Assembly (NCBI RefSeq): GCF_003334305.1
Contig: NZ_QOWS01000003.1
DNA: 64,000 nt
Origin: Escherichia coli
GTDB lineage: Bacteria > Pseudomonadota > Gammaproteobacteria > Enterobacterales > Enterobacteriaceae
Strand: one strand, 5' to 3'
Shown here: positions 31,364-46,916 of the stretch, one piece after another
How the letters are laid out: the number at the start of each line of letters is the position of its first letter
How positions within the stretch are numbered: the stretch's first letter is position 1
Position numbers and translations under genes: made by a program
The notes under the pieces: model-generated
Told to the model about the DNA's origin: nothing
Seen by the model: only the letters and a program-made list of their open reading frames with translations
Database searches by the model: none

Positions 31364-31384
31364 AGTTCACTCTGATAAGAACAA

Positions 31385-31404
31385 AGCCCCGCCGAAGCGG
31401 GGCT
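31385..31404 (-). terminator. Rho-independent terminator after btsT
   Basis: agccccgc-cgaa-gcggggct hairpin 9 nt downstream of the btsT stop, followed on the minus strand by a T-rich run. Confidence 0.6.
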
Positions 31405-31412
31405 AAATACGG

Positions 31413-33563
31413 TTAGTGGTGCGAAGAGATCTTCACGCCGCCTTCCGGGATTGGAACGTACGGTGTTTCTTTGTCAGTACGTTTGTCGCTGTTACGCACA
31501 TTCAGCCAGGTTTTGAAACCGTAGAAGATGATGCTGTACACCACAATCAGGAACAGAATACTCAGGCCTGCGTTGGTGTAGTTGTTCACAACGATGTGGT
31601 TCATGTTGGCAATCTGCTGCGCCGTCAGGTCAGTACCGTTAGCAATCTTCTCTTTGTACTGGCTTGCCATGTAGAAGAAGCCTTCCATCTGCGGGTTGGT
31701 GCTGAACAGTTTCAGACCCAGCGCCCAGGTGGTGCAGATAAGCAGCCATACAGCCGGAACAACAGTTACCCAGATGTATTGGGTGCGCTTCATCTTAATC
31801 AGCACAACGGTGCCCAGTACCAGCGCTACGGCTGCCAGCATCTGGTTGGAAATACCGAACAGCGGCCACAGGCTCTTAACGCCGCCCAGCGGATCGACCA
31901 CGCCCTGATACAGCAGGTAGCCCCACAGACCCACACAGCCCGCAGTACCGATGATACCGGCAACCAGAGAGTCGGTTTTTTTCAGGAACGGGATGAAGTT
32001 ACCCAGCAGGTCTTGCAGCATAAAGCGGCCAGAACGAGTACCCGCATCCAGCGCGGTCAGGATGAACAGGGCTTCGAACAGAATACCGAAGTGATACCAG
32101 AAGCCCATGTCAGCCATCGGCAGCACTTTGTGGAACACGTGAGCGATACCTACCGCCAGCGTTGGCGCACCACCTGCACGGTTCAGGACAGAAGGCTCAC
32201 CAATGTCTTTCGCGGTTTGCAGGATCTGCTCTGGCGAAATCACGAAGCCCCAGGAGCTGACGGTCGCTGCCGCGTGTGCGGTAACGTCTTTCAGCTGCGC
32301 CATGATGATCGGCGCGTTCTCGCCACCCATTTCATGCAGGTTAGGCATGGTGATGCCAAGGCCAGCAGGCGGGGTATTCATCGCGAAGTAAAGACCCGGT
32401 TCGATGATGGACGCTGCAACCAGCGCCATAATCGCCACGAAGGACTCCATCAGCATTGCGCCGTAGCCAATGAAACGCGCGTCGGTTTCGTTAGCCAGCA
32501 GTTTTGGCGTCGTACCGGAAGAGATCAGCGCGTGGAAGCCAGATACCGCACCACAGGCGATGGTGATGAACAGGAACGGGAACAGAGCGCCTTTCCACAG
32601 CGGGCCAGTACCGTCAATGTACTGGGTCGTCGCAGGCATTTTCAGTTCCGGGTTCAGCACCACGATACCCAGCGCCAGGCCGACGATAACGCCGATTTTC
32701 AGGAAGGTTGCCAGATAGTCGCGCGGTGCGAGGATCAGCCACACCGGCAGCAGTGCGGAAACAAACGCATAGCCAATCAGCGCGAAGGTAATGGTGGTGT
32801 CTTTAAAGGTCAGTGCCGGACCCCAGTACGGATCGTGAGCAATCACGCCACCGAAGTAGATAGAGGCAACCAGCAGCACGATACCAATGACAGAGACTTC
32901 ACCCACACGCCCCGGACGGATAAAGCGCATGTAGATACCCATAAACAGCGCAATCGGTACGGTTGAGCAAACGGTGAAAACACCCCACGGGCTTTCGGCC
33001 AGGGCTTTAACCACAATCAGCGCCAGGACGGCAAGGATGATGATCATGATTAAGAAACAGCCAAACAGCGCGATAGTCCCCGGTACTGGTCCCATCTCTT
33101 CTTTGATCATCTCACCGAGAGATGCGCCGTTACGGCGAGAGGAGATAAACAGCACCATAAAGTCCTGTACCGCACCGGCCAGTACTACCCCCGCCAGCAG
33201 CCACAGCGTGCCAGGTAGGTAGCCCATCTGCGCGGCGAGAACCGGACCAACCAGCGGACCAGCACCGGCGATAGCGGCGAAGTGGTGACCAAACAACACG
33301 TAACGGTTGGTCGGAACATAGTTCAGACCGTCGTTGTTAATAACCGCAGGCGTCGCGCGCGTGGGGTCGAGTTTCATCACCTTCTGGGCGATGTACAGAC
33401 TGTAGTAGCGATAAGCCACCAGATACACCGACACAGAGGCGACCACGATCCACAGGGCGCTGACGTGCTCCCCCCGACGTAATGCAACTACCGCGAGGCA
33501 GAATGCACCGATGATTCCGAGAATCACCCAGGGTATGTGCTTGAATAGTTTTTTCGTATCCAT
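31413..33563 (-). CDS. btsT: Pyruvate/H+ symporter (CstA family) BtsT/YjiY
   Basis: 716 aa from MDTKKLFKHIPWVILG; polytopic CstA-like transporter; recognised YjiY. Confidence 0.9.
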   Translation of the reverse strand: MDTKKLFKHIPWVILGIIGAFCLAVVALRRGEHVSALWIVVASVSVYLVAYRYYSLYIAQKVMKLDPTRATPAVINNDGLNYVPTNRYVLFGHHFAAIAGAGPLVGPVLAAQMGYLPGTLWLLAGVVLAGAVQDFMVLFISSRRNGASLGEMIKEEMGPVPGTIALFGCFLIMIIILAVLALIVVKALAESPWGVFTVCSTVPIALFMGIYMRFIRPGRVGEVSVIGIVLLVASIYFGGVIAHDPYWGPALTFKDTTITFALIGYAFVSALLPVWLILAPRDYLATFLKIGVIVGLALGIVVLNPELKMPATTQYIDGTGPLWKGALFPFLFITIACGAVSGFHALISSGTTPKLLANETDARFIGYGAMLMESFVAIMALVAASIIEPGLYFAMNTPPAGLGITMPNLHEMGGENAPIIMAQLKDVTAHAAATVSSWGFVISPEQILQTAKDIGEPSVLNRAGGAPTLAVGIAHVFHKVLPMADMGFWYHFGILFEALFILTALDAGTRSGRFMLQDLLGNFIPFLKKTDSLVAGIIGTAGCVGLWGYLLYQGVVDPLGGVKSLWPLFGISNQMLAAVALVLGTVVLIKMKRTQYIWVTVVPAVWLLICTTWALGLKLFSTNPQMEGFFYMASQYKEKIANGTDLTAQQIANMNHIVVNNYTNAGLSILFLIVVYSIIFYGFKTWLNVRNSDKRTDKETPYVPIPEGGVKISSHH

Positions 33564-33842
33564 AGTAAAACCTGGCATTTTACTCGTCGTCTTTTGGCTT
33601 ACAGGTGCGGCAGCTGCGTTCGTTCACCTCTGTCACTTACTGTTGCAAGCTCCCGGGGATTCACTCACTTGCTGCCTTCCTGCAAACCAAAATCCATAGA
33701 GTAATTTGTTAATCATAGGCCGAAGCCGTTCTAGGTTTGCGTTGCGTTTGAGGAGGTAAATTGACCGCTATCCTGCAGTGATGTTGCCAGAGATACGCGC
33801 GCGTAAAGTAAGGTAAATAACTGAGTGGTTATTTTAGGGATG

Positions 33843-33870
33843 TAAGCGGTCAGGAATGGCGGTGAGCGGT
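33843..33870 (-). promoter_or_regulatory. Putative BtsR (YehT, LytTR) binding site: direct repeat upstream of btsT
   Basis: On the btsT-sense strand reads ACCGCTCA-N12-ACCGCTTA, matching the ACC(G/A)CT(C/T)A direct repeat I recall for YehT at the yjiY promoter; about 280 nt upstream of the btsT start. Confidence 0.5.
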
Positions 33871-33922
33871 TGGGCAAGAATTATTCATCGGGTGGATATG
33901 TGATTGAGATCACAATAAAAAT

Positions 33923-33949
33923 GCCCCTTCGACGAATGCGTGAAGGGGC
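33923..33949 (-). terminator. Rho-independent terminator after hpaC
   Basis: gccccttc...gaaggggc hairpin immediately after the hpaC stop, followed on the minus strand by ATTTTTATT. Confidence 0.6.
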
Positions 33950-33955
33950 TGGAGC

Positions 33956-34468
33956 TTAAATCGCAGCTTCCATTTCCAGCATCACCGGATGGAAACGGCG
34001 TTTAAAGTAAATAAGTCCGTGACCTTCTGCACTGAGGATGATGTTTTTAATCTCCACCAGATACACCAGATGTGTGCCAATCGCCTGCACATCGCGGATC
34101 TCTCCTTCAAGACTGGCCAGCGAACCTTTCAGCACCGGCTGCGCCAGCGGACCTTTTTGCCAGCATGAGAGGCTAAAACGCTCTTCCATCGCCATGCCTG
34201 TCATGCCCGCGAAGTGGCGTGCCATCAGTTCCTGCTCATGGTTGAGGACGTTGACGCACAACTTACCGTTGCCCTGAAAAACCGGGTTCATCGCACTGTT
34301 GGCGTTAATGCACACCATCAGCGACGGTGGTGTATCCGTGACCGAGCAGACGGCCGTTGCCGTAATTCCGCATTGTCCGGCGTCGCCCTCGGTGGTGATA
34401 ATATTTACCGCTGCCGACAGGCTGGCCATTGCGTCACGAAAGCGCAGGCGTTGTTCATCTAATTGCAT
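33956..34468 (-). CDS. hpaC: 4-HPA 3-monooxygenase reductase component (flavin:NADH reductase)
   Basis: 170-aa ORF; recognised HpaC. Confidence 0.9.
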   Translation of the reverse strand: MQLDEQRLRFRDAMASLSAAVNIITTEGDAGQCGITATAVCSVTDTPPSLMVCINANSAMNPVFQGNGKLCVNVLNHEQELMARHFAGMTGMAMEERFSLSCWQKGPLAQPVLKGSLASLEGEIRDVQAIGTHLVYLVEIKNIILSAEGHGLIYFKRRFHPVMLEMEAAI

Positions 34469-34485
34469 CTTAACCTCCTGCTGCG

Positions 34486-36048
34486 TTATTTCAGCAGCTT
34501 ATCCAGCATGTTGATATCGTCGTTGTTGTGCAGGTGCGGCACAGTCCAGCCGTTCTGGTCGTATTCCGACAGGCAGCGATCAACCATCGCCATCATCTTG
34601 TCCATATTGCCGGAGCTTTGTGCCTGGCGCAGACACTGCAGGCGAATCTCATCCTGGCTACCGGAGTAGTTGATTTCATACAGTTCGTGACGACCACCAA
34701 ACTCGCTGCCAATGGCATCCCACATCAGTTTGAGGATCTTGATGCGCTGGACGTGATCCATACCGTTCGAACCGCGCACATACTTCGCCAGATACTGGTC
34801 GATCTGCGGATTGTTCAGGTCACGGGCACTGGAAGGGAGATAGATCAGGCCACTGGTAACGTTGCGTTCGATAATGTTTTTGATCTTCGCGTAGGCCATT
34901 GGTGCCAGTACGCGATAGGTTTGCAGTGCGGCATGATCCGGTAAATAAGCCCCGTTGACCCACGGCGTCGCTTCAGAACACATCGAGTCACTCAATGCCC
35001 AGAAGGTGTTGCGCCACGCCACCACTTCACCGAGATCGGCCTGCACACCACGGAACTCCAGGGTGCCGGTACATTCGAGTGATTTTTTCAGCAGTGCCGT
35101 AATGAAGTCGAGTTTCACTGCCAGGCGCACACAGGCTTGCAGCGGATACATACGGGCGAAACCGCCTTCCATCGTCCAGCGACGGCAGCGATCAAAATCG
35201 CGGTAGATCAGCACGTTTTCCCATGGGATCAGCACGTTATCCATCACCAGAATCGCATCGTTCTCATCGAAGCGGCTGGAGAGCGGGTAGTCGTACGGCG
35301 AGCCGGTAGCACCCGCGACCATCTCATAAGAGGCGCGGGAGATTAATTTCACGCCATCGGCATCCATTGGCGCAACGAACATCAGTGCGAAGTCCGGGTT
35401 TTCGCCCATTACTTGTGCCGAGCCGAAGCCAATCATGTTGTAGTGAGTCAGCGCCGAGTTGGTGGCAACCACTTTCGCACCGCTAACGATAATCCCGGCG
35501 TCAGTCTCTTTTTCCAGCTTGATGTAAACGTCTTTCACTTTATCGGTCGGCAAATGACGATCGATCGGTGGGTTAACAATCGCGTGGTTAAAGTAGAGGC
35601 CAGTTTCCTGAATACGGGTGTACCAGTTACGGGCGTTCTGCTCGAACTGACCGTAAAAGCCCGGATTCGCGCCCAGTGCGCAACCGAAAGCAGCTTTGTA
35701 GTCTGGGGTACGGCCCATCCAGCCATAGCTCAGGCGTGACCATTCAGCGATGGCGTCGCGTTGCTGGCGCAGGTCGTCGGCACTTTTCGCCACGCGGAAG
35801 AATTTATGGGTATAGCCGCCGCTGCCGGTGTCGGTGTTCCAACACAGAGAGTCCTGCATCTCCGGTTTGTGCAGCGCGTCGTACAGTTGGGCAACAGACG
35901 CTGCCGCATTACGAAATGCCGGATGAGTGGTGACGTCTTTCACTCGCTCGCCATAGATATAGATCTCGCGACCATCCTGCAGGCTTTTCAGATACTCTTC
36001 CCCGGTGAAAGGACGTTGGGTACTGGCGCGGAAATCTTCTGGTTTCAT
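34486..36048 (-). CDS. hpaB: 4-hydroxyphenylacetate 3-monooxygenase oxygenase component
   Basis: 520-aa ORF; recognised HpaB. Confidence 0.9.
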   Translation of the reverse strand: MKPEDFRASTQRPFTGEEYLKSLQDGREIYIYGERVKDVTTHPAFRNAAASVAQLYDALHKPEMQDSLCWNTDTGSGGYTHKFFRVAKSADDLRQQRDAIAEWSRLSYGWMGRTPDYKAAFGCALGANPGFYGQFEQNARNWYTRIQETGLYFNHAIVNPPIDRHLPTDKVKDVYIKLEKETDAGIIVSGAKVVATNSALTHYNMIGFGSAQVMGENPDFALMFVAPMDADGVKLISRASYEMVAGATGSPYDYPLSSRFDENDAILVMDNVLIPWENVLIYRDFDRCRRWTMEGGFARMYPLQACVRLAVKLDFITALLKKSLECTGTLEFRGVQADLGEVVAWRNTFWALSDSMCSEATPWVNGAYLPDHAALQTYRVLAPMAYAKIKNIIERNVTSGLIYLPSSARDLNNPQIDQYLAKYVRGSNGMDHVQRIKILKLMWDAIGSEFGGRHELYEINYSGSQDEIRLQCLRQAQSSGNMDKMMAMVDRCLSEYDQNGWTVPHLHNNDDINMLDKLLK

Positions 36049-36298
36049 GTCGACCTCTACAGTATTAATCGGAATACGATTGTTAATTTTGTGTGTTGTT
36101 TTTGTTATTTAATTGAAGCTTGCAGGGGCGATTACGGGAAGACACTTTTGGGACAATGGCTGGTACTTTTCAGGTCGGGTACGGTTTTGTGATCGAGGTC
36201 GCTTTTAGCGATTTTTAACGTTACTAAATCCCCTTGCTCCAGGCGGAGAAAGGGGAATAGCAGGTGGTGCCTGGTTTCCCGTTAAGGCTAAGGGATTT

Positions 36299-37189
36299 TC
36301 ACGTCACAGGTACTTTTTTGGCACGATAAGCACTGGGCGAGCAACCGACTAAGCGATTAAAAAAGCGCGCAAAATAAGCCGGATCTTTAAAACCGAGTTG
36401 CCAGGCAATATTGTTCACGGCGTTATCAGAAAACAGCAGCAGCCGCTTGGCTTCTCGTAGCTGCCTGTCGAAAATCAACCGTTTTGGCGGACGGTTGGCA
36501 AAGCGGCGGCAGATGTCCGTGAGTCGTGATTCGGTGATATGCAGTTCGTTAGCGTAATCCGGTACTGTCCAGTGCTGATGAAAATGGCTTTCAATCAGCA
36601 TATTAAAACGCTGGAACAGTTTTAATTCTCCGCGCATCCCGCTGGCGGCATGGTCGTCGAGTTTTGCATTACGCAGCAGTAGGGTGAACACTGCCTGTGC
36701 CAGTAGCGTCAGGGTGTGTTCCCGTCCAGGCAGTTGTTCCACCGATTCCCGCTCTATCAGTTGCCAATAGTGTTCCAGCGCCGCCAGTTCGTCGGGTTTA
36801 TCTGCCAGTGACAGGCAAATCCCCGGCAGGCCGAAGGTTTCCCGAGTGCCTGGATAAAGAACTTCCAGCAGGGGCCAGATCAGATCTTCCCGTACCGTCA
36901 ACACATGACCGTCGGCGTCAGACTCCGTAATAAACGCATGAGGTACTGACGGTGGCGTCAGGACAAACAGGGGCGCTTCCACCGAGTAGCGATGATCGTC
37001 AAGCTGTAGCTCAATCTGTCCGCTATTGAGGAAATGCATCTGAAAGTACTGTTCGTGGCGATGTGGCAGCATATGGCGGCCAAAAAAGGCCGCCATGCGG
37101 GCGAACGACTGATAATGCACATCGTCCGTGCCCAGGCTTTCATCGTACTCTTTGCTGATATCAATATTGGCAATCTGACGGTCACACAT
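36299..37189 (-). CDS. hpaA: AraC/XylS-family activator of hpaBC
   Basis: 296-aa ORF with C-terminal AraC-type HTH; cupin-like N-terminal region. Confidence 0.85.
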   Translation of the reverse strand: MCDRQIANIDISKEYDESLGTDDVHYQSFARMAAFFGRHMLPHRHEQYFQMHFLNSGQIELQLDDHRYSVEAPLFVLTPPSVPHAFITESDADGHVLTVREDLIWPLLEVLYPGTRETFGLPGICLSLADKPDELAALEHYWQLIERESVEQLPGREHTLTLLAQAVFTLLLRNAKLDDHAASGMRGELKLFQRFNMLIESHFHQHWTVPDYANELHITESRLTDICRRFANRPPKRLIFDRQLREAKRLLLFSDNAVNNIAWQLGFKDPAYFARFFNRLVGCSPSAYRAKKVPVT

Positions 37190-37198
37190 CGTCGTTCC

Positions 37199-38575
37199 TT
37201 ACGGGGTCGCTCGCGGACGGGAGGACTGCATTGGAATCGCCCAGATAATCCCCGCACCAATCACCAGCAGCGCGGCAACAAACCACAATCCACTGTTAAA
37301 GCTGCCGGTCAGATCTTTCAACCAGCCGATCATAAACGGACTTAACGCTGAACCAATGTTGCCAGTGGCGTTGATCACCGCAATACCGATCGCTCGTGCC
37401 CGCAGGCTGATGGACTGATCCGGTGTTGTCCAGAAAATCGCCATTGCGCTGAATGATCCGGTCGAAGCCATAATGATCCCCAGCATCTGGATCATGTTGT
37501 GATCAGTTGCCGAAGCCAGTAACCAACCTGCGGCAGCGAACAAATAAGGAAGGGCGGTGTGATGCCTTCGTTCCTGGCGGCGATCTGAGTGACGGCTCCA
37601 GTAGACCATCCCGAGAATGGTACAAATCTGCGGTACGGCGGCCAGCAGGCCGATGGTGATATTACTGCTGCCCTGATTAAAACTTTGCAGGATCTGCGGT
37701 GTCCAGATGCTGATCGCACTAAGTGTGTTGGTCAGGCAGAAATACGCCAGGGTATACATCATCACCACCGGAGTGAAGATCTCCCGCCACATACTGCGTT
37801 GTTGCATGGCGTGGTGGCTGATGGCTCCCTCTGGCTGAACCAGCGTCAGACGATCGTTATCCATCATCTCTTGCAGGCATTTTTTGTCTTCTTTCGTCAG
37901 CCACTTAGCTTTGTCCGGTGAGTCATCAAGCCAGAACCACACCATGACGCCGAGTAATACCGACGGGAAGCCTTCCAGCAAAAACAGCCACTGCCAGCCT
38001 TTTAATGCCATTACGCCATCCAGCGACAAAATGTAGCCGGAAACGAGCGATCCCAACGCTGTCGTTACCGGCATTGCAACCATAAACAAGGCGTTGGCAC
38101 GGGCGCGGAAATAGGCCGGAAACCAGAAGGTTAAATACAGCAGAATGCCAGGCAGAAAGCCGGCTTCGGTAATGCCAACCAGTATACGCAGTACGTACAA
38201 GCTGGTGGGGCCAGTGGCAAACATGGTGGCAGTAGAGGCGATGCCCCAGAGCACCATGATGGTGGCGATCCAGCGCCGCGCACCGACAATACTCAGCATA
38301 ATGTTGCTGGGAATGCCGAAGATGACATAAGCGGCATAGAACAGGGTGGTAGCGAGGCCAAACATGGTGGCGCTCAGACCGAGGTCGCGTCCCATCGTGA
38401 GTCCGGCAAAGCCGATGTTGATGCGATCAAGGAACGAGAAGATAAACAGCACGAACAGAAAGACGATCAGGCGGCGAAATAGCTTCTTAATAACCGCCTG
38501 TTGTCCGGCAGTCAGCGCTTTATGCTGATTCGCCGGATCGATACTCTCCGGTATGGCAGGTGAGGTGTCGCTCAT
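37199..38575 (-). CDS. hpaX: 4-hydroxyphenylacetate MFS transporter
   Basis: 458 aa from MSDTSPAIPESIDPANQ; 12-TM MFS permease; the longer ORF start is rejected. Confidence 0.85.
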   Translation of the reverse strand: MSDTSPAIPESIDPANQHKALTAGQQAVIKKLFRRLIVFLFVLFIFSFLDRINIGFAGLTMGRDLGLSATMFGLATTLFYAAYVIFGIPSNIMLSIVGARRWIATIMVLWGIASTATMFATGPTSLYVLRILVGITEAGFLPGILLYLTFWFPAYFRARANALFMVAMPVTTALGSLVSGYILSLDGVMALKGWQWLFLLEGFPSVLLGVMVWFWLDDSPDKAKWLTKEDKKCLQEMMDNDRLTLVQPEGAISHHAMQQRSMWREIFTPVVMMYTLAYFCLTNTLSAISIWTPQILQSFNQGSSNITIGLLAAVPQICTILGMVYWSRHSDRRQERRHHTALPYLFAAAGWLLASATDHNMIQMLGIIMASTGSFSAMAIFWTTPDQSISLRARAIGIAVINATGNIGSALSPFMIGWLKDLTGSFNSGLWFVAALLVIGAGIIWAIPMQSSRPRATP

Positions 38576-38624
38576 TTTTCTTCCTCTAATGGGATTTTTG
38601 TAGGGTACGACAAGGTTTATGGCG

Positions 38625-38745
<121 letters not shown>

Positions 38746-38749
38746 GGCA

Positions 38750-39538
38750 TTAATACACGCCGGGCTTCACGGCGGTGGCCTGCGCACCAAACCGTGCTGC
38801 CAGCGCTTCAGCGGCGCGGGCGAGCAGGGTGGTGTCAACGCCGACGGCGACAAACAGCGCGCCCAGTTCCAGATAGCGTTTTGCCAGTTGCTCATTGGCG
38901 ATCAGGATCCCCGGCGCTTTGCCCGCTTCGCGGATCTGCACGATCGCCTGCTCAATGGCGGCCTGTACTTCCGGGTGCTGCGGATTACCGGCATAACCCA
39001 TATCGGCGCTCAGATCCGCCGGGCCGATAAACACGCCGTCGACCCCTTCCACGTCCAGAATCTGCGGTAAGTTCTTCATTGCCTCACGCGTTTCGATCTG
39101 CACCAGCACGCACATTTGATCGTTGGCTTTTTGCAGGTAATCAGGAATGCGATTCCAGCGCGAGGCACGGGCCAGCGCACTGCCCACACCGCGAATACCG
39201 GCGGGGGGATAACGGGTGGCGCGTACCGCTTCACGGGCTTCGTCAGCGTTTTGAACCATCGGCACCAGTAAGGTTTGTGTGCCGACGTCCAGCAGTTGTT
39301 TGATTTGCACCGGATCGTTCCACGACGGACGTACTACCGGCTGGCTGGGGTAGGGCGCAATCGCCTGTAGCTGGGTGAGCACGGTTTGCACGTTATTCGG
39401 CGCGTGCTCACCGTCGATCAATAACCAGTCGAATCCTGCTCCGGCCAGTAACTCTGCGCTGTAGCTGCTACTTAGCCCCAGCCATAATCCGATCTGCGGG
39501 CGGCCTGCTTTCAGCGCCGCTTTAAAACTGTTTTCCAT
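38750..39538 (-). CDS. hpaI: 2,4-dihydroxyhept-2-ene-1,7-dioate aldolase (HpcH/HpaI)
   Basis: 262 aa from [20 protein letters not shown]; the ORF-track 5' extension is rejected. Confidence 0.85.
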
Positions 39539-39548
39539 CGTTCTCTCC

Positions 39549-40352
39549 TTAAACAAAGCGGCAGCTAATGGAGCCCATGTTGCCGTAATCGACGTGGAAG
39601 GTGTCGCCCTTACGCGCCGGAACCGGGCGGGTGAACGAACCGCCGAGAATGATTTGCCCGGCTTCCAGTTGTACGTCATACGGTGCGAGTTTGTTCGCCA
39701 GCCAGGCCACGCCGTTTGCCGGATGATTTAGCACGCCAGCGGCGACGCCGGTTTCTTCAATCACGCCATTGCGATACATCAGGGCGGAGATCCAACGCAG
39801 ATCCAGTTCGTCTGGTTTGATCGGACGACCGCCGAGGATCACTCCGGCGTTGGCGGCGTTATCAGAAATGGTGTCGAACACTTTGCGCGGGCGCTGGGTT
39901 TCCGGATCGATGTTGTGGCAGCGAGCGTCGATCAGCTCCAGCGCCGGGATCACGTAGTCCGTGGCGTTGTAGACGTCGAACAGCGTGCAGTTTGGCCCAC
40001 GCAGCGGTTTTGCCAGCACGAAAGCCAGCTCCACTTCAATGCGCGGCACGATAAAGCGATCGGTCGGGATATCGCTGCCATCGTGGAAGAACATGTCGTC
40101 CAGCAATGCACCGTAATCTGGTTCGCTGATTTGTGAGCTGGCCTGCATCGCTTTCGAGGTCAGACCGATTTTGTGGCCTTTCAGCGTACGGCCTTCGGCG
40201 ATTTTCAGTCGAACCCATTCACGCTGCACCGCGTAAGCGTCTTCGATGGTGATCTCCGGGTAATCCAGGGAGATCGCGCGGATCTGTTCGCGCTGTTTTT
40301 CTGCCTGATCCAGACGCTGGGCGATCAGGGTGTGGGTGTGTTTATCGAACAT
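39549..40352 (-). CDS. hpaH: 2-oxo-hept-4-ene-1,7-dioate hydratase
   Basis: 267 aa from [20 protein letters not shown]; recognised HpaH/HpcG. Confidence 0.85.
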
Positions 40353-40419
40353 AGCGATATCCTGTGGCATTGCCGGATGCGGCTGCGCCTTATCATCCGG
40401 CCTGGAAGCTGGTGCAAAT

Positions 40420-40800
40420 TTATTTAAACAACGCGTGCACGTTGTTTTGTTTAAAATTCAGCGTCGGGTGCAGCTCTGCAATCTCAAATGAAAGCGCCAG
40501 GTAACGGCTCTCCATCAGTGAGGCGAAGTGCGTTTTAATCAGATCAAACAGCATTTCGCCCACTTCCTGACGGCTTTCCAGGCTGCGCCCGCTGCCGATT
40601 TTTAGCGTCATATGCACAAAGGCGTAATCGTGCTTGCCATCAGCCATTTGCCAGGTATCGATCCAGTGCGCCCGGCTACGTATTCCCCCAAGCGGAAAAA
40701 TCCCCGTCGCCGCCAGTGCAGTGTTAACACTGGCAAACAGCTCAGGTAAGCGGGCTTCTTGACGAATATTTTCAGTACATTCCACGATAAAGTGCGGCAT
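40420..40800 (-). CDS. hpaF: 5-carboxymethyl-2-hydroxymuconate isomerase
   Basis: 126-aa ORF; recognised HpaF/HpcD. Confidence 0.85.
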
Positions 40801-40809
40801 GGTGGTTCC

Positions 40810-41661
40810 TTACGCGGGAAGCGGGAAAACAGCGTTAACCTGACCGGTGCCAGAGCTTGGGAATAGCTCGGTGATAAACTCCACCTTGCCGTCGTATTTA
40901 TCCCAGCCGAGCATCCCCAGCAGCATCACCGTGTCGTGCATATTGCCTTCGCCGTAGCAGTAGTCGGCGTACTCCGGCAGCATATTGCAGAACTCTTTGA
41001 ACTGGCCTTCGCGCCACAACTTCACCACGCGCTCGTCCATCTGGCGGTCGAACTCGCGGGTGTAGCTGTTCATCCCTTCTTCTGCACGCTGATCGTCAAT
41101 AAAGCGGTGCGATAACGAACCGCTGGCAAGGACCGCCACGGTGCCGTCGTACTGTTCGATCGCTTTCAGAATCGCTTCGCCCAGCTTGCGGCTGTCGGCA
41201 AAATCGTGAACCGTGCAGAAAGCCGAAATGGAGACCACTTTGAAGCGCTTGTCTTCATTCATGTAGCGCATCGGTACCAGCGTGCCGTATTCCAGTTTCA
41301 GGCTGGGAATGTTGTGCGCTTTTGCCCGCACGCCGAGCTTTAAGGCTTCATCGGCAATTAGCTGCCCCAACTCCGGGTTGCCCTCGTAGTTGTAGGTCAT
41401 GTCACGAATAAAATGCGGCAGCTCGTTGCTGGTGTAGACGCCTTCAAAATGGTCTGCACAGTTGATGTGATAAGCACTGTTGACCAGCCAGTGGGTATCG
41501 AAAACGATAATGGTATCGACGCCCATTTCCCGGCAACGCTTGCTGATCTCTTTATGCCCGTCGATCGCACCCTGGCGGCAACCGTGGTTTTTCCCTGGCA
41601 GTTCAGAGAGATACATCGACGGTACGTGCGTGATCTTGGCGGCTAACGCTAACTTACCCAT
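40810..41661 (-). CDS. hpaD: 3,4-dihydroxyphenylacetate (homoprotocatechuate) 2,3-dioxygenase
   Basis: 283-aa ORF; recognised HpaD/HpcB. Confidence 0.9.
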   Translation of the reverse strand: MGKLALAAKITHVPSMYLSELPGKNHGCRQGAIDGHKEISKRCREMGVDTIIVFDTHWLVNSAYHINCADHFEGVYTSNELPHFIRDMTYNYEGNPELGQLIADEALKLGVRAKAHNIPSLKLEYGTLVPMRYMNEDKRFKVVSISAFCTVHDFADSRKLGEAILKAIEQYDGTVAVLASGSLSHRFIDDQRAEEGMNSYTREFDRQMDERVVKLWREGQFKEFCNMLPEYADYCYGEGNMHDTVMLLGMLGWDKYDGKVEFITELFPSSGTGQVNAVFPLPA

Positions 41662-41662
41662 A

Positions 41663-43129
41663 TCAGACTCCCCATTTCGGAATTGGATGGTCGCCCATGG
41701 AAATGCAGACGTTCTTCATTTCCGCGAACACTTCGAAGCTGTACTCACCGCCTTCACGTCCGGTGCCGGAGGCTTTTACGCCGCCAAACGGCTGGCGCAG
41801 GTCGCGGACGTTCTGGGTGTTGACGAACACCATGCCTGCTTCAATGCCACGCGCCAGGCGTAACACTTTGCTGACATCCTGTGTCCAGATGTACGACGCG
41901 AGGCCGTACTCCACGTCGTTTGCCAGGCGTAAGCCTTCGGCTTCGTCTTTAAACGGCAGCAGGCAGGCGACCGGCCCGAAAATCTCTTCCTGGGCGACGC
42001 GCATACGGTTATCAACGTCTGCCAGCACCGTTGGGCGCAGGAAGTTGCCGCCTTTCAGGTGTGCAGGCAGGTCAGACGGTTTATCCGGGCCGCCCGCCAG
42101 CAGGGTTGCGCCTTCTTCAATGCCGAGACGGATATAGCCGGAGACTTTTTCCCAGTGTTGCTGGCTGATAAGCGCCCCAACCTGGGTATTTGGATCGTTC
42201 GGATCGCCCACGCGCAGACGGTTGGCGCGTTCGGCAAAGCGTTTAACGAATTCCGGGTAGATGCTCTGCTGAATAAAGATGCGCGAACCGGCGGTGCAGC
42301 GTTCGCCGTTGATCGAGAAGATGGTGAACAGGGCGGCGTCCAGCGCGCGTTCAATATCAGCATCTTCAAAAATCAGCACCGGCGATTTACCGCCCAGTTC
42401 CATGGAGTATTTTTTCAGCCCGGCGTTTTTCATGATGTTGCGCCCGGTGGCGGTACCGCCGGTGAACGACACGGCACGCACGTCATGATGACGAACCAGC
42501 GCATCCCCTGCGGTTGCGCCGTAGCCCTGTACCACGTTCAGCACGCCTGCCGGAATACCGGCTTCCAGCGCCAGCTCACCCAGGCGGTCAGCGGTCAGCG
42601 GGGAGAGTTCCGACATCTTCAGCACCGCGGTATTGCCCAGCGCCAGACACGGCGCGACCTTCCAGGTGGCGGTCATAAACGGCACGTTCCACGGCGATAC
42701 CAGCGCACAAACGCCCACCGGCTGCACCAGCGTGTAGTTGAGCATCTTGTCGTCAACCGGATAGGTCTTGCCGTTCATCTGCTGGCAGACTTCCGCGAAA
42801 AATTCAAAGTTGTGAGAAGCGCGTGGGATCAACACATTTTTGGTCTGATGGATCGGCAGGCCCGTGTCCGCGGTTTCCATCGCGGCGATCTCCGGTACGT
42901 TCTGGTCGATCAGATCGCCCAGACGGCGCATCAGGCGCGCGCGCTCTTTCATCGGCAGATTGGCCCATTTCGGGAACGCCTCTTTCGCTGCCGCTACCGC
43001 CTGATTGATCTCCGCTTCACCGCCGGAGGCCACATCCGCCAGCACTTCACCCGTTGCCGGATTGGTAGTCTGGAAGTAGTCGTTACCTGCAACATTTTTA
43101 CCGTTGATCCAATGATTTACTTTTTTCAT
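41663..43129 (-). CDS. hpaE: 5-carboxymethyl-2-hydroxymuconate semialdehyde dehydrogenase
   Basis: 488-aa ORF; aldehyde dehydrogenase family; 1-nt gap to hpaD and 4-nt overlap with hpaG. Confidence 0.9.
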   Translation of the reverse strand: MKKVNHWINGKNVAGNDYFQTTNPATGEVLADVASGGEAEINQAVAAAKEAFPKWANLPMKERARLMRRLGDLIDQNVPEIAAMETADTGLPIHQTKNVLIPRASHNFEFFAEVCQQMNGKTYPVDDKMLNYTLVQPVGVCALVSPWNVPFMTATWKVAPCLALGNTAVLKMSELSPLTADRLGELALEAGIPAGVLNVVQGYGATAGDALVRHHDVRAVSFTGGTATGRNIMKNAGLKKYSMELGGKSPVLIFEDADIERALDAALFTIFSINGERCTAGSRIFIQQSIYPEFVKRFAERANRLRVGDPNDPNTQVGALISQQHWEKVSGYIRLGIEEGATLLAGGPDKPSDLPAHLKGGNFLRPTVLADVDNRMRVAQEEIFGPVACLLPFKDEAEGLRLANDVEYGLASYIWTQDVSKVLRLARGIEAGMVFVNTQNVRDLRQPFGGVKASGTGREGGEYSFEVFAEMKNVCISMGDHPIPKWGV

Positions 43130-44415
43130 TTCGCTGTTTCCTCACTCACAATTCGGTTCACCAGGCGGCCCACGCCTTCTACTTCCACCACCACTTCATC
43201 GCCAGGCACCACGTCAGATAAGCCTTTTGGTGTGCCGGTGGCGATCATGTCGCCCGGATTCAGGGTCATAAATTCGCTTAAGTAGGCGATCAGGAAGGGC
43301 ACGCTGAAGATCAGATCGGCGGTGGTGCCTTGCTGGCGTAACTCGCCGTTGACGAAGGTGCGAAGGGTCAGATTATGCGGGTCCGGGATCGCCTCTTTCG
43401 GCACGATGGTTGAAAGCATCGGCGTCAGTCCGTCGCGGCTTTTGACCCGCAGGTTAGGGCGGTAGTAGTTTTCCAGATAGTCGCGAATGGCGTAGTCGTT
43501 ACACACGGTGTAGCCCGCGACATAATCCATGGCATCGGCTTCGCTGACGTTACGCGCCTGTTTGCCAATAACTACCACCAGCTCCGCTTCATAGTGCATG
43601 TATTCAATATTGTTTGGACGCACGGAGGTCTGGTTATCGCCAGTGAGGGTATTTGGCGCTTTCAGGAACACCAGCGGTTCTTCCGGTGGCTTAAATTCCA
43701 GTTCGCTGGCGTGGTCGGCGTAGTTCAGGCCGAGGGCAAACAGCGTGCCGTGCGGGTGTGGCTGCGTTGGGAAGCTCTTGCGCGTGGTCACTTCACGTTC
43801 GTCCACTACCGGATTTTCCAGCGGCGGGAAACCTTCTGCGAGAACACGAACGCGATCGCCTGGCTGTATTTCCACGCGCGCCTGTGGCGTGCCGAGCAGA
43901 ATGGCATCGCCTGGATTCAGTGTGGCAAATTCGCTCAGGGCGCTCAGCAACTGCGCGGCGTTACGTTGTAAATCGGCGGTATTCCAGTGATCGGCAGGAC
44001 GCCCGTTGATCTCGGTATAGATGGTCAGATTATCGACATTGCTGAGAGCCACGGTTTCGCCAATGGGGCAGAATCCATCACGACATTTTGCTTTGATTGC
44101 CGGGCGGTAAAAGCTCTCTTCCGGCAGGCTGACGTCGTTAGCCAGCGCATATCCGGCGATGTACTCTGCCGCATCTTCTTCACGTACTTTCGTCGCCGTT
44201 TTTCCCACAATCAGCGCAACAGTCGCACCGCTCAGTACCTTTTCACCCTGTGGAAAGGGAATCGGTTCACCGCAACCAATCACCGTATTGCGCGGTTTAA
44301 TAAACCAGACCGCAGTTTTAGGCGGGGCTTTGTAGGGGGATTGCTGGAACGCTTCCTGCCATGCATCAAGTTGGCTGCGATGGTTCAACGCTACGGCGAA
44401 GATAGTGCCTTTCAT
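43126..44415 (-). CDS. hpaG: Bifunctional OPET decarboxylase / HHDD isomerase
   Basis: 429 aa from MKGTIFAVALNHRSQ with GAGGAG RBS; two FAH-like halves. Confidence 0.9.
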   Translation of the reverse strand: MKGTIFAVALNHRSQLDAWQEAFQQSPYKAPPKTAVWFIKPRNTVIGCGEPIPFPQGEKVLSGATVALIVGKTATKVREEDAAEYIAGYALANDVSLPEESFYRPAIKAKCRDGFCPIGETVALSNVDNLTIYTEINGRPADHWNTADLQRNAAQLLSALSEFATLNPGDAILLGTPQARVEIQPGDRVRVLAEGFPPLENPVVDEREVTTRKSFPTQPHPHGTLFALGLNYADHASELEFKPPEEPLVFLKAPNTLTGDNQTSVRPNNIEYMHYEAELVVVIGKQARNVSEADAMDYVAGYTVCNDYAIRDYLENYYRPNLRVKSRDGLTPMLSTIVPKEAIPDPHNLTLRTFVNGELRQQGTTADLIFSVPFLIAYLSEFMTLNPGDMIATGTPKGLSDVVPGDEVVVEVEGVGRLVNRIVSEETAK

Positions 44416-44440
44416 TACCACTCCTCGGATTCGATCATTT

Positions 44441-44464
44441 TAATCATTAATATGTTAATGATTA
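44441..44464. promoter_or_regulatory. Perfect palindrome in the hpaG promoter region, probable HpaR (MarR-type) operator
   Basis: TAATCATTAA-TATG-TTAATGATTA, 26-50 nt upstream of the hpaG ATG; a partial copy (ATTAATGATTTT) occurs at about 44652..44667 near the hpaR start. Confidence 0.4.
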
Positions 44465-44686
44465 CTTTTATTCCCGATTGCGTAGTTTGGCAAAAGTAAG
44501 TGATGTAAATGTGATCTAATTAACAAACTATTTACATTTAAAGATAATAAAATATTAAATATCAGCAAGTTAACAAAACATGCTCAATTTTGATAAAATG
44601 AAGAATTGCAGGGGCAGCGCAGTCCCGGTAACGTGATGATTAACTGTTTCTATATTAATGATTTTGAATTTTTCAGGGGAAAGATA

Positions 44687-45133
44687 ATGCACGACTCTCT
44701 AACCATTGCGTTGCTCCAGGCGCGAGAAGCGGCGATGAGTTATTTTCGCCCAATCGTTAAACGGCATAATTTGACTGAGCAACAGTGGCGCATCGTGCGT
44801 ATTCTGGCGGAAAGCCCATCAATGGATTTTCACGATCTGGCGTATCGCGCCTGCATTTTGCGCCCAAGCCTGACCGGGATCCTTACGCGGATGGAACGCG
44901 ACGGTTTAGTGTTGCGATTAAAGCCGATCAATGATCAGCGGAAGCTCTATATCTCGCTAACCAAAGAGGGGCAGGCGCTGTATAACCGCGCTCAGACACA
45001 GATTGAAGAAGCCTATCGGCAGATTGAAGCTCAGTTTACTGCCGAGAAAATGCAACAGTTAACCCATCTGTTAGAGGAATTTATTGCTCTGGGCAATTCC
45101 CGACAAGAAGACATCCCGGGCGATAATGAATAA
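44687..45133 (+). CDS. hpaR: MarR-family repressor of the hpa meta-cleavage operon
   Basis: 148 aa from MHDSLTIALLQAREAAMSYF; winged-helix MarR-like; divergent from hpaG. Confidence 0.85.
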   Translation: MHDSLTIALLQAREAAMSYFRPIVKRHNLTEQQWRIVRILAESPSMDFHDLAYRACILRPSLTGILTRMERDGLVLRLKPINDQRKLYISLTKEGQALYNRAQTQIEEAYRQIEAQFTAEKMQQLTHLLEEFIALGNSRQEDIPGDNE

Positions 45134-45194
45134 CTTTTTAGTATCTGATAACCAGCGCCTGGTTTTTCCATGGATGGCGGGTTACACCTTTTCA

Positions 45195-45221
45195 TAAAGT
45201 TTTTGCTTTCCAGGCCGAAAA
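45195..45221 (+). promoter_or_regulatory. Sigma-28 (FliA) promoter of tsr
   Basis: TAAA-N15-GCCGAAAA matches the flagellar class-III consensus TAAA-N15-GCCGATAA; about 30 nt upstream of the tsr start. Confidence 0.6.
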
Positions 45222-45251: not shown

Positions 45252-46916
45252 ATGTTAAAACGTATCAAGATCGTGACCAGCTTACTGCTGGTTTTGGCTG
45301 TTTTTGGCCTTTTACAACTGACATCAGGCGGTCTGTTCTTTAATGCCTTAAAGAATGACAAAGAAAATTTCACTGTTTTACAAACCATTCGCCAGCAGCA
45401 ATCCACGCTGAATGGCAGCTGGGTCGCGTTGTTGCAGACGCGTAACACCCTCAACCGCGCGGGTATCCGCTACATGATGGATCAGAATAATATTGGTAGC
45501 GGTTCAACCGTTGCTGAGCTGATGCAGAGTGCCAGTATTTCGCTGAAACAGGCGGAAAAAAACTGGGCGGATTACGAAGCGTTGCCGCGTGACCCGCGTC
45601 AGAGCACCGCCGCAGCGGCAGAGATCAAACGTAATTACGATATTTATCACAATGCGCTGGCGGAGCTGATCCAACTATTAGGGGCAGGCAAAATCAACGA
45701 GTTCTTTGATCAGCCGACCCAGGGATATCAGGACGGTTTCGAGAAGCAGTATGTGGCTTACATGGAGCAAAACGATCGGCTCTATGATATCGCCGTCAGC
45801 GATAACAATGCCTCCTACAGCCAGGCTATGTGGATTCTGGTGGGCGTGATGATCGTCGTACTGGCGGTCATCTTCGCCGTCTGGTTCGGTATTAAAGCCT
45901 CGCTGGTAGCGCCAATGAATCGCCTGATTGACAGCATTCGTCATATTGCAGGCGGCGATCTGGTGAAACCGATTGAGGTGGATGGCTCTAATGAGATGGG
46001 GCAACTGGCAGAGAGTTTGCGCCATATGCAGGGAGAGCTGATGCGTACCGTCGGTGATGTGCGCAACGGGGCCAATGCCATCTATAGCGGTGCCAGCGAA
46101 ATCGCCACCGGCAATAACGATCTCTCTTCGCGCACCGAGCAACAGGCCGCTTCGCTGGAAGAGACGGCAGCCAGCATGGAGCAACTGACCGCAACGGTGA
46201 AGCAGAACGCCGAAAATGCGCGCCAGGCCAGCCATCTGGCGTTAAGTGCTTCTGAAACGGCGCAACGCGGCGGCAAAGTGGTGGATAACGTGGTGCAGAC
46301 TATGCGCGATATCTCCACCAGTTCGCAGAAAATCGCCGATATTATCAGCGTAATTGACGGCATTGCCTTCCAGACCAATATTCTGGCTTTGAACGCGGCG
46401 GTTGAGGCTGCGCGTGCGGGTGAGCAAGGGCGCGGTTTTGCGGTGGTTGCGGGAGAAGTGCGTAATCTGGCCCAGCGTAGCGCCCAGGCGGCTCGTGAAA
46501 TTAAAAGCCTGATTGAAGACTCGGTGGGGAAAGTGGATGTTGGCTCTACGCTGGTCGAAAGCGCCGGGGAAACAATGGCGGAGATTGTCAGTGCTGTGAC
46601 CCGCGTGACGGACATTATGGGCGAAATAGCTTCTGCTTCTGATGAGCAGAGCCGTGGTATCGATCAGGTTGGCTTAGCGGTTGCTGAGATGGACCGGGTA
46701 ACTCAACAGAACGCCGCGCTGGTGGAAGAATCTGCCGCCGCCGCCGCCGCGCTGGAAGAGCAGGCCAGTCGCCTGACCGAAGCTGTGGCAGTGTTCCGGA
46801 TTCAGCAACAGCAGCAACAGCAGCGTGAAACATCGGCTGTGGTAAAAACCGTGACGCCAGCTACGCCGCGTAAAATGGCAGTGGCAGATAGCGGGGAGAA
46901 CTGGGAAACGTTTTAA
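45252..46916 (+). CDS. tsr: Methyl-accepting chemotaxis protein I (serine chemoreceptor)
   Basis: 554-aa ORF; two TM segments, HAMP, methylation helices, C-terminal NWETF pentapeptide; recognised Tsr. Confidence 0.9.

What the first reader, a model, noticed from the sequence alone, without database searches (positions are those of the whole stretch)
33871..45194. The 11-gene hpa (4-hydroxyphenylacetate) catabolic cluster is inserted precisely between the btsT regulatory region and the tsr promoter
The arrangement hpaR / hpaGEDFHI / hpaX / hpaA / hpaBC matches the E. coli W-type hpa cluster, which K-12 lacks. Its left edge falls within about 50 bp of a BtsR-like direct repeat upstream of btsT; its right edge (hpaR stop at 45133) is about 60 bp from the tsr sigma-28 promoter. 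Both flanking promoters appear intact despite an insertion of about 11.3 kb. No mobility genes are present; an internal BIME cluster lies between hpaI and hpaX. Together with pac about 4 kb away (whose products include phenylacetate), this makes a regional concentration of aromatic-acid metabolism.
Basis: partly seen in the sequence, partly recalled or inferred. Interest (0 to 1): 0.5.

Follow-up and report, generated by a model that had tools for sequence, protein, structure and literature searches.

The report
Known hpa cluster, ancestral not inserted
This is the well-known 11-gene E. coli cluster for breaking down 4-hydroxyphenylacetate; it sits where related genera also carry it, so strains like K-12 most likely lost it rather than this strain having gained it.

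Summary
Eleven hpa genes (hpaC, B, A, X, I, H, F, D, E, G on the minus strand, hpaR on the plus strand) lie between btsT and tsr. All pass curated NCBIfam cut-offs. There are no mobility genes, three REP elements lie between hpaI and hpaX, and pac is 3.8 kb to the left.

The "precise insertion" reading is not supported. The order tsr-hpaR-hpaG…hpaC-btsT-yjiA recurs in Citrobacter, Enterobacter, Lelliottia, Klebsiella and Raoultella. Synonymous divergence of the hpa genes is at least as large as that of the flanking genes, and GC3 is unremarkable. The cluster is therefore ancestral at this site, and K-12 carries a derived replacement: an unrelated filler of about 84 bp.

Among 5,426 complete E. 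coli genomes, at least four alleles share the same borders:
- hpa: 2,065 genomes
- K-12-type filler: 2,754
- an O157-type 775-bp segment with an orphan ORF: 363
- a roughly 16-kb hydroxyproline/D-amino-acid island: 35

The borders fall just after a conserved CRP site (33899-33914) and about 5 bp before the tsr sigma-28 -35 element (45195).

The flanking cis elements are intact. However, hpa-positive strains also carry a linked ERIC-like hairpin of about 124 bp in the btsT leader. The cluster itself is already known, so interest is low.

The parts
27575..30115 (+). pac (penicillin G acylase), 846-codon open ORF; it takes the place of the K-12 immigration-control region between yjiS and yjiA
   Evidence: present in 1,075 of 5,426 genomes, 1,072 of them contiguous with hpa; PMC3032704 reports the same replacement in strain W
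31413..33563 (-). btsT (yjiY), pyruvate/H+ symporter; left flanking core gene
33579..33702 (.). ERIC/IRU-like imperfect palindrome of about 124 bp inserted in the btsT 5' leader, 15 nt upstream of the ATG; absent from K-12, UTI89, O55:H7, the hydroxyproline-island allele and the other genera
   Evidence: indel; hairpin -54.8 kcal/mol, z -7.5; dispersed repeat, median 8 copies per genome; at this site in 2,063 genomes, against 2,065 hpa-positive
33822..33870 (-). three direct repeats, ACCRCTYA on the btsT strand (33822-33829, 33843-33850, 33863-33870); this is the BtsR/YehT-binding region
   Evidence: conserved across genera; overlaps the published YehT-binding probe sequence (PMC4847170)
33871..33898 (.). 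spacer between the repeats and the CRP site; same length in all alleles but three unrelated sequence types in E. coli
33899..33914 (.). CRP site TGTGATTGAGATCACA; conserved in all E. coli alleles and in all genera examined; marks the true left border of the variable block
   Evidence: CRP dependence of btsT is reported in PMC5431176 and PMC7730263
33923..33949 (-). intrinsic terminator hairpin of hpaBC, followed by a U-run that extends to the edge of the CRP site
   Evidence: -18 kcal/mol, z -3.8
33956..36048 (-). hpaB (34486-36048) and hpaC (33956-34468): two-component 4-HPA 3-monooxygenase
36299..37189 (-). hpaA, AraC-family activator
37199..38575 (-). hpaX, MFS 4-HPA permease
38621..38750 (.). 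three REP elements (two in one orientation, one inverted), a BIME-like cluster between hpaI and hpaX
38750..44415 (-). hpaGEDFHI meta-cleavage operon: hpaG 43126-44415, hpaE 41663-43129, hpaD 40810-41661, hpaF 40420-40800, hpaH 39549-40352, hpaI 38750-39538
44416..44686 (.). AT-rich divergent hpaG/hpaR control region with sigma-70-like promoter matches on both strands
44687..45133 (+). hpaR, MarR-family repressor
45134..45190 (.). hpaR-tsr spacer; right end of the variable block; homology with every other allele resumes at about 45189-45194
45195..45221 (+). tsr sigma-28 promoter, TAAAGTTT-N11-GCCGAAAA
   Evidence: conserved in all alleles and genera
45252..46916 (+). tsr, serine chemoreceptor; right flanking core gene

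Best explanation
The block 33915-45190 is the classical chromosomal hpa cluster of E. coli B, C and W.

Function, from established knowledge of the pathway (Prieto et al. 1996; Diaz et al. 2001; summarised in PMC7201708). HpaX imports 3- or 4-hydroxyphenylacetate. HpaBC hydroxylates it to homoprotocatechuate. HpaD, E, F, G, H and I carry out extradiol ring cleavage and convert the product to pyruvate and succinic semialdehyde. HpaA (AraC family) activates hpaBC, and HpaR (MarR family) represses hpaGEDFHI.

Origin (inferred). The cluster is not a recent insertion. It occupies its ancestral position between btsT and tsr, which it shares with other Enterobacteriaceae. The hpa-minus state of K-12 is a derived and old allele in which the whole block was replaced by about 84 bp of unrelated DNA.

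The locus (shown). The btsT-tsr spacer is multi-allelic, with at least four unrelated contents.

Borders (coincidence shown, cause inferred). All the alleles share the same borders because those borders are the edges of selected cis elements. On the btsT side these are the BtsR repeats plus the CRP site; on the tsr side, the sigma-28 promoter. Only variants that leave these elements untouched persist.

Spread (inferred). Alleles move between lineages by homologous recombination in the flanking core genes. This carries linked markers along: the ERIC-like element in the btsT leader, and pac 3.8 kb away.
For: - All 11 proteins exceed NCBIfam equivalog cut-offs.
- The order tsr-hpaR-hpaGEDFHI-hpaX-hpaA-hpaBC-btsT-yjiA is found in Citrobacter, Enterobacter, Lelliottia, the Klebsiella oxytoca group and Raoultella, and tsr-hpaR-hpaG... 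in a divergent Escherichia lineage (dS about 0.2).
- dS of the hpa genes against these genera is 0.6-1.9 (higher for hpaR), against 0.5-1.4 for the flanks btsT, yjiA and tsr, so there is no sign of recent transfer.
- GC3 of the hpa genes is 0.56-0.72, against 0.61-0.68 for the flanks.
- hpa-positive E. coli differ by 1.1-1.9% over 13.4 kb, which is core-like diversity.
- Allele counts: hpa 2,065, K-12 filler 2,754, O157 type 363, hydroxyproline island 35.
- All alleles diverge immediately after the CRP site and re-converge at the sigma-28 -35 element.
- The BtsR repeats, CRP site and sigma-28 promoter are conserved across genera while the sequence between them is not.
- There are no terminal direct or inverted repeats beyond chance and no mobility genes.
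- The ERIC-like element is present at this site in 2,063 genomes.
- pac is confined to the hpa-positive haplotype: 1,072 of 1,075 genomes.
- The literature already proposes loss in K-12 (PMC7201708).
Against: - The K-12 filler shows no recognisable remnant of hpaC, hpaR or their spacers (p 0.3-0.7). The deletion polarity therefore rests on outgroup synteny alone, not on relics.
- The hpa-minus filler allele is the majority (51%) and is itself old: copies differ by up to 6-10%. The polymorphism is therefore ancient, and the state of the last common ancestor of E. coli is not observed directly.
- In Salmonella arizonae and diarizonae the cluster is arranged differently and is not flanked by btsT or tsr within the 10-kb flanks retrieved.
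- No expression data were available, so "promoters intact" means only that the sequence motifs are intact.
Confidence: 0.8

Rival explanations
1. True insertion or re-acquisition. The ancestor of E. coli had an empty, K-12-like btsT-tsr spacer. The hpa block was brought in from another enterobacterium that has the same synteny, by homologous recombination through btsT and tsr.
For: The K-12-type allele is the most common (2,754 of 5,426 genomes). It occurs in distant phylogroups (K-12 and UTI89). Its filler is not a relic of hpa. Mosaic patterns in the spacer show that recombination does occur here.
Against: dS of the hpa genes against every genus sampled is as high as or higher than that of the flanks, so no donor is apparent. 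hpa-positive E. coli show core-like 1-2% diversity. A divergent Escherichia lineage also has hpa next to tsr. The hpa-positive spacer begins with the same 12 bases (one mismatch) as the Klebsiella spacers.
Confidence: 0.12
2. The block is a mobile genomic island or site-specific cassette that targets the btsT-tsr spacer. That would explain why several unrelated cassettes share identical borders.
For: Four unrelated contents have borders that coincide to within a few bp. In Enterobacter and Lelliottia an extra gene also sits directly beyond the CRP site.
Against: No integrase, transposase, tRNA or att-like repeat lies in or beside the block. Composition is native. Rfam finds nothing. The borders coincide with the edges of selected regulatory sites, which is enough to explain them.
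Confidence: 0.03
3. Independent recurrent deletions. hpa-minus strains arose many times through separate deletions that happened to end at the same places.
For: hpa-minus strains are scattered over several phylogroups.
Against: All 2,754 K-12-type genomes share the same filler sequence, and all 363 O157-type genomes share the same 775-bp segment. This points to single origins followed by spread.
Confidence: 0.05

Closest known systems
hpa (4-hydroxyphenylacetate / homoprotocatechuate) cluster of E. coli W ATCC 11105, B and C (Prieto, Diaz and Garcia 1996; Diaz et al. 2001)
   Same: The same 11 genes in the same order and orientation, with the same two regulators and permease, REP elements between hpaI and hpaX, pac nearby, and absence from K-12 (PMC3032704; PMC7201708).
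   Different: Nothing material. The window is 100% identical to strain H15 over 13.4 kb.
Orthologous hpa clusters of Citrobacter, Enterobacter, Lelliottia, Klebsiella oxytoca group and Raoultella
   Same: The same position between tsr and btsT-yjiA. The BtsR repeats, CRP site and sigma-28 promoter are conserved.
   Different: Protein identity is 69-98%. hpaX comes in two forms (about 70% and about 90% identity). Some genera have an extra 305-aa HTH gene between hpaC and the btsT CRP site. None has the ERIC-like element in the btsT leader.
ERIC / IRU dispersed repeats of enterobacteria
   Same: An imperfect palindrome of about 124 bp, intergenic but probably transcribed, and multi-copy. From memory, it matches the ERIC1R primer with 2 mismatches in 20 and the ERIC2 primer with 4 in 22.
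   Different: This copy is polymorphic and almost perfectly linked to hpa presence.
E. coli immigration-control region (hsd-mcr-mrr), a multi-allelic replacement locus about 4 kb away
   Same: Alternative unrelated gene sets at one chromosomal site between conserved core genes, exchanged by flanking homologous recombination.
   Different: The btsT-tsr alleles are catabolic or empty rather than defence genes, and their borders coincide with regulatory sites.

Membership tests
E. coli hpa catabolic cluster | All 11 genes present: hpaB, C, A, X, I, H, F, D, E, G and R | tested here: met
   Each protein scores above the curated NCBIfam equivalog cut-off.
E. coli hpa catabolic cluster | Organisation hpaR / hpaGEDFHI / hpaX / hpaA / hpaBC | tested here: met
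   Coordinates and strands; organisation as described in PMC7201708.
E. coli hpa catabolic cluster | Confers growth on 3- or 4-hydroxyphenylacetate | not testable with these tools
   All ORFs are intact, so function is expected, but this needs a growth assay.
Horizontally acquired genomic island | Composition or codon bias deviates from the flanks | tested here: not met
   Gene GC is 0.50-0.60 and GC3 0.56-0.72, against GC3 0.61-0.68 for the flanks.
Horizontally acquired genomic island | Integrase or transposase, tRNA target, flanking direct repeats | tested here: not met
   None found.
Horizontally acquired genomic island | Absent from the orthologous site in related genera | tested here: not met
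   Present at the same site in at least five genera.
ERIC/IRU element (btsT leader, 33579-33702) | Imperfect palindrome of about 127 bp forming a long hairpin | tested here: met
   -54.8 kcal/mol, z -7.5.
ERIC/IRU element (btsT leader, 33579-33702) | Dispersed multi-copy family in enterobacterial genomes | tested here: met
   2-14 copies per genome, median 8, at 60-90% identity.
ERIC/IRU element (btsT leader, 33579-33702) | Match to the published ERIC consensus | tested here: inconclusive
   Compared only with the ERIC1R and ERIC2 primer sequences recalled from memory. No curated model is available, and Rfam gave no hit.
BIME / REP cluster | Several REP palindromes in alternating orientation in an intergenic region | tested here: met
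   Three REPs at 38621-38750, with the last one inverted.
BtsR (YehT)-dependent, CRP-dependent btsT promoter | Direct repeats of the LytTR-type motif plus an upstream CRP site | tested here: met
   Repeats at 33822, 33843 and 33863; CRP site at 33899-33914; the region matches the published probe. Binding itself was not tested.
FliA (sigma-28) class 3 promoter of tsr | TAAAGTTT-N11-GCCGATAA-like motif upstream of tsr | tested here: met
   45195-45221; -35 and -10 elements identical to K-12, with one substitution in the spacer between them.

The most novel reading that the evidence does not exclude
The btsT-tsr spacer may be more than a passive indel site. It could be a recurrent cassette-replacement locus whose borders, the distal edge of a CRP palindrome and the -35 of a sigma-28 promoter, are re-used to within a few bp by at least four unrelated contents in E. 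coli. A fifth content uses the left border in Enterobacter and Lelliottia. That would suggest either a recombination mechanism favoured at these sites or functional coupling. On the coupling side, hpa catabolism ends in pyruvate, btsT imports pyruvate, and hpa-positive haplotypes carry a linked ERIC hairpin 15 nt upstream of the btsT start codon that could alter CsrA control, translation or mRNA stability of btsT.
Probability: 0.12. Interest if true: 0.45.

Novelty: already known. Interest (0 to 1): 0.18.

Why it matters
The cluster and its absence from K-12 are textbook knowledge, so little hinges on it. What this check adds:

- It corrects the polarity. The cluster is ancestral synteny and K-12 carries a derived replacement, so this is not an insertion. 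That matters for anyone using the locus as an example of horizontal gain.
- It shows that apparently "precise" indel borders can simply mark the edges of selected promoter elements.
- It documents that the site is multi-allelic in E. coli.
- It shows that hpa presence is almost perfectly linked to an ERIC-like hairpin in the btsT leader, and that pac occurs almost only on the hpa haplotype. Both should be treated as confounders when btsT or tsr expression is compared between hpa-positive and hpa-negative strains.

Tried and rejected
- Target-site duplication or terminal inverted repeats at 33860-33960 versus 45125-45200. Only one 8-mer inverted match was found, close to the shuffle expectation. 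Rejected.
- K-12 filler as a remnant of hpaC, hpaR or any other part of the cassette. Local alignments were no better than shuffles, p 0.3-0.7. Rejected.
- K-12 filler as a remnant of the O157-type insert or of the ends of the hydroxyproline island. p 0.1-0.4. Rejected.
- Structured RNA families in 31.0-47.5 kb. Rfam gave no hits at gathering thresholds.
- Identity of the O157-type 180-aa ORF. Only sub-threshold hits: PADLOC oMTase E 9e-4 over 65 residues, and Pfam TnsA-like N-terminal domain E 0.11. It remains uncharacterised.
Folding recovered it.
- A weak hairpin after hpaR (45151-45170) is not better than shuffles, z -0.2. I therefore do not claim an hpaR terminator.
- The original papers (Prieto 1996, Diaz 2001, Kraxenberger 2012) are not held in the library. 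Statements about them rest on my own knowledge or on papers that cite them.
- The look-up of exact YjiX-encoding contigs gave more E. coli-type contexts but no named outgroup.

Full report
**1. Observation**

The region 33.9-45.2 kb holds eleven intact genes. Each scores above the curated cut-off of an NCBIfam equivalog model: hpaC, hpaB, hpaA, hpaX, hpaI, hpaH, hpaF, hpaD, hpaE and hpaG on the minus strand, and hpaR on the plus strand.

The window is 100% identical over 13.4 kb to E. coli strain H15. The RefSeq annotation of that strain gives the same coordinates. The flanking genes are btsT (31413-33563, minus) and tsr (45252-46916, plus).

Other points from the finding also check out:
- pac is an open 846-codon ORF at 27575-30115.
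- The hpaI-hpaX spacer holds three REP palindromes at 38621-38750, two in one orientation and one inverted.
- No ORF in the block is anything other than an hpa gene.
- K-12 has a 377-bp btsT-tsr spacer and no hpa genes.

**2. Borders**

Alignment with K-12 and UTI89 shows homology from btsT up to 33869/33870. It resumes at about 45189-45191, roughly 5 bp before the -35 element of the sigma-28 promoter TAAAGTTT-N11-GCCGAAAA (45195-45221).

On the btsT strand, three direct repeats of ACCRCTYA lie at 33822-33829, 33843-33850 and 33863-33870. They fall within the sequence used as the YehT/BtsR-binding probe in PMC4847170. Next comes a spacer (33871-33898) of constant length but unrelated sequence in the window, K-12 and O55:H7. 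After it lies a perfect CRP site, TGTGATTGAGATCACA (33899-33914), which all alleles share. btsT expression is reported to depend on CRP (PMC5431176, PMC7730263).

The true left border of the variable block is therefore 33914/33915. The hpaBC terminator hairpin (33923-33949; -18 kcal/mol, z -3.8) lies only 8 bp beyond the CRP site.

There is no target duplication or terminal inverted repeat beyond chance.

**3. Insertion or ancestral?**

A scan of one genome per species using HpaA returned 26 loci. Locating the window's proteins in them gave the order tsr-hpaR-hpaGEDFHI-hpaX-hpaA-hpaBC-btsT-yjiA in Enterobacter, Lelliottia and one Citrobacter locus (L006). The btsT-yjiA side was also found in further Citrobacter loci, the Klebsiella oxytoca group and Raoultella. 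The tsr-hpaR-hpaG side was found in a divergent Escherichia lineage (dS about 0.2). Salmonella arizonae and diarizonae have a rearranged cluster without btsT or tsr in the flanks retrieved.

Three further measures argue against recent transfer:
- Nei-Gojobori dS between the window and nine outgroup loci is 0.6-1.9 for the hpa genes (higher for hpaR). For yjiA, btsT and tsr it is 0.5-1.4. The cluster is thus at least as diverged as its neighbours.
- GC3 is 0.56-0.72 inside the block and 0.61-0.68 in the flanks. The GC profile shows no step, apart from the AT-rich hpaG/hpaR control region.
- Among hpa-positive E. coli, the block plus flanks differ by 1.1-1.9%, which is like core genes.

The most economical reading is that the cluster is ancestral at this site and the hpa-minus alleles are derived. 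This agrees with the loss hypothesis cited in PMC7201708.

**4. A multi-allelic site**

Among 5,426 complete E. coli genomes:

| Allele between btsT and tsr | Genomes |
|---|---|
| Contiguous hpa locus (hpaB present in 2,072) | 2,065 |
| K-12-type filler of about 84 bp | 2,754 |
| 775-bp AT-rich segment with an unassigned 180-aa ORF (O157:H7 / O55:H7 type) | 363 |
| Island of about 16 kb with hydroxyproline epimerase, oxidoreductases, D-aminoacylase, a deaminase, two transporters and two regulators | 35 |
| Not classified | about 200 |

All four alleles diverge directly after the CRP site and re-converge at the sigma-28 -35 element.

Across genera, the three repeats, the CRP site and the sigma-28 promoter are conserved, while the DNA between them is not alignable. 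In Enterobacter, hpaR ends only about 30 bp from the -35 element. In Enterobacter and Lelliottia an extra 305-aa HTH gene sits directly beyond the CRP site.

I infer that the "precision" of the borders reflects purifying selection on the two flanking promoters rather than a site-specific insertion mechanism.

The K-12 filler is shared by all 2,754 genomes, so it has a single origin. Its copies differ by up to 6-10%, so it is old. It has no significant similarity to the hpa block, the O157 segment or the island ends. The polarity argument therefore rests on outgroup synteny, not on relics.

**5. Are the flanking regulatory regions intact?**

The motifs are intact. Two of the three repeats are identical to K-12. 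In the distal repeat, K-12 differs at the outgroup-conserved first base, reading GCCGCTCA, whereas the window, O55:H7 and the outgroups read ACC there. The CRP half-sites are perfect. The sigma-28 -35 and -10 elements are identical to K-12, with one substitution in the spacer between them.

The btsT leader is not the same, however. An element of about 124 bp (33579-33702) is inserted 15 nt upstream of the ATG. It folds into a long imperfect hairpin (-54.8 kcal/mol, z -7.5). It belongs to a dispersed family with a median of 8 copies per genome. From my memory of their sequences, it matches the ERIC1R and ERIC2 primers.

The element is absent from K-12, UTI89, O55:H7, the hydroxyproline-island allele and the other genera. 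It is present at this site in 2,063 genomes, almost exactly the number that are hpa-positive. Any comparison of btsT expression between hpa-positive and hpa-negative strains would be confounded by this element.

**6. pac**

pac replaces the K-12 immigration-control region between yjiS and yjiA. The same replacement was described for strain W (PMC3032704). It occurs in 1,075 genomes, and in 1,072 of them it is contiguous with hpa. About half of the hpa-positive genomes carry it. Its diversity is lower than that of hpa: 1,062 of the 1,075 copies are at least 99% identical. The "regional concentration of aromatic-acid metabolism" is real, but it is already described.

**7. How it works**

The following rests on established knowledge of the pathway and was not tested here. 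HpaX imports 3- or 4-HPA. HpaBC, a flavin-dependent two-component monooxygenase, produces homoprotocatechuate. HpaD cleaves the ring. HpaE, F, G, H and I convert the product to pyruvate and succinic semialdehyde. HpaA activates hpaBC, and HpaR represses hpaGEDFHI from the AT-rich divergent region (44416-44686), which contains sigma-70-like matches on both strands.

**8. Verdict**

The object is already known. The "precise insertion" interpretation should be replaced by [quoted passage not shown]. The new details are incremental: the shared borders of four alleles, the conserved CRP site, and the linkage of the ERIC-like element and of pac. Interest is low.

Noticed in passing
window 33579-33702: An ERIC/IRU-like hairpin of about 124 bp sits in the btsT 5' leader, 15 nt upstream of the ATG. 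It is present at this site in 2,063 of 5,426 E. coli genomes, almost exactly the hpa-positive set (2,065). It is absent from hpa-minus alleles and from other genera.
   Followed up: yes
L003 2494-3268 (E. coli O55:H7 DEC5A; same site as window 33915-45190): O157:H7 / O55:H7-type strains (363 genomes) carry a 775-bp AT-rich segment in place of hpa. It holds an uncharacterised 180-aa ORF with only sub-threshold hits: PADLOC orphan methyltransferase E 9e-4, and Pfam TnsA-like N-terminal domain E 0.11.
   Followed up: partly
L033 1300-17500 (E. coli L2_E1649, NZ_LR882973.1; same site): A fourth allele: an island of about 16 kb and 14 genes between btsT and tsr. It encodes 4-hydroxyproline epimerase, FAD oxidoreductases, N-acyl-D-amino-acid deacylase, an amino acid deaminase, an aldehyde dehydrogenase, two transporters, and AraC- and RpiR-type regulators. 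It is found in 35 genomes and has the same borders as hpa.
   Followed up: partly
L032 10281-16115 (E. coli DG342-2, NZ_OZ392464.1): A variant hpa haplotype with an extra MBL-fold metallo-hydrolase gene between hpaB and hpaA, and divergent hpaA, hpaX and hpaI. Among the other genera hpaX likewise comes in two forms, about 70% and about 90% identical to the window's.
   Followed up: no
window 27575-30115: RefSeq annotates pac in the identical strain H15 as a pseudogene ("internal stop"), yet the window shows an uninterrupted 846-codon ORF. pac occupies the place of the K-12 hsd-mcr-mrr immigration-control region. It is found almost only on hpa-positive chromosomes (1,072 of 1,075) and shows very low diversity (at least 99% identity in 1,062 of the 1,075 pac-positive genomes).
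   Followed up: partly
window 33871-33898: The spacer between the BtsR repeats and the CRP site keeps its length but exists as three unrelated sequence types in E. coli: window and hydroxyproline-island type, K-12/UTI89 type, and O55 type. The window type begins with the same 12 bases (one mismatch) as Klebsiella. O55:H7 has BtsT and Tsr proteins identical to the window's but a different spacer, which indicates a mosaic produced by recombination within the intergenic region.
   Followed up: partly
L007 13379-14296 (Enterobacter sichuanensis); similar extra DNA in L011 and L016: In Enterobacter and Lelliottia a 305-aa HTH-type ORF is inserted between hpaC and btsT. Its end abuts the conserved btsT CRP site.
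   Followed up: no
L034-L043, btsT-yjiX spacer (window 31364-31412): The gap between the btsT stop and the yjiX start is 49, 117 or 130 bp in different E. coli contigs. This suggests another small indel or repeat polymorphism.
   Followed up: no
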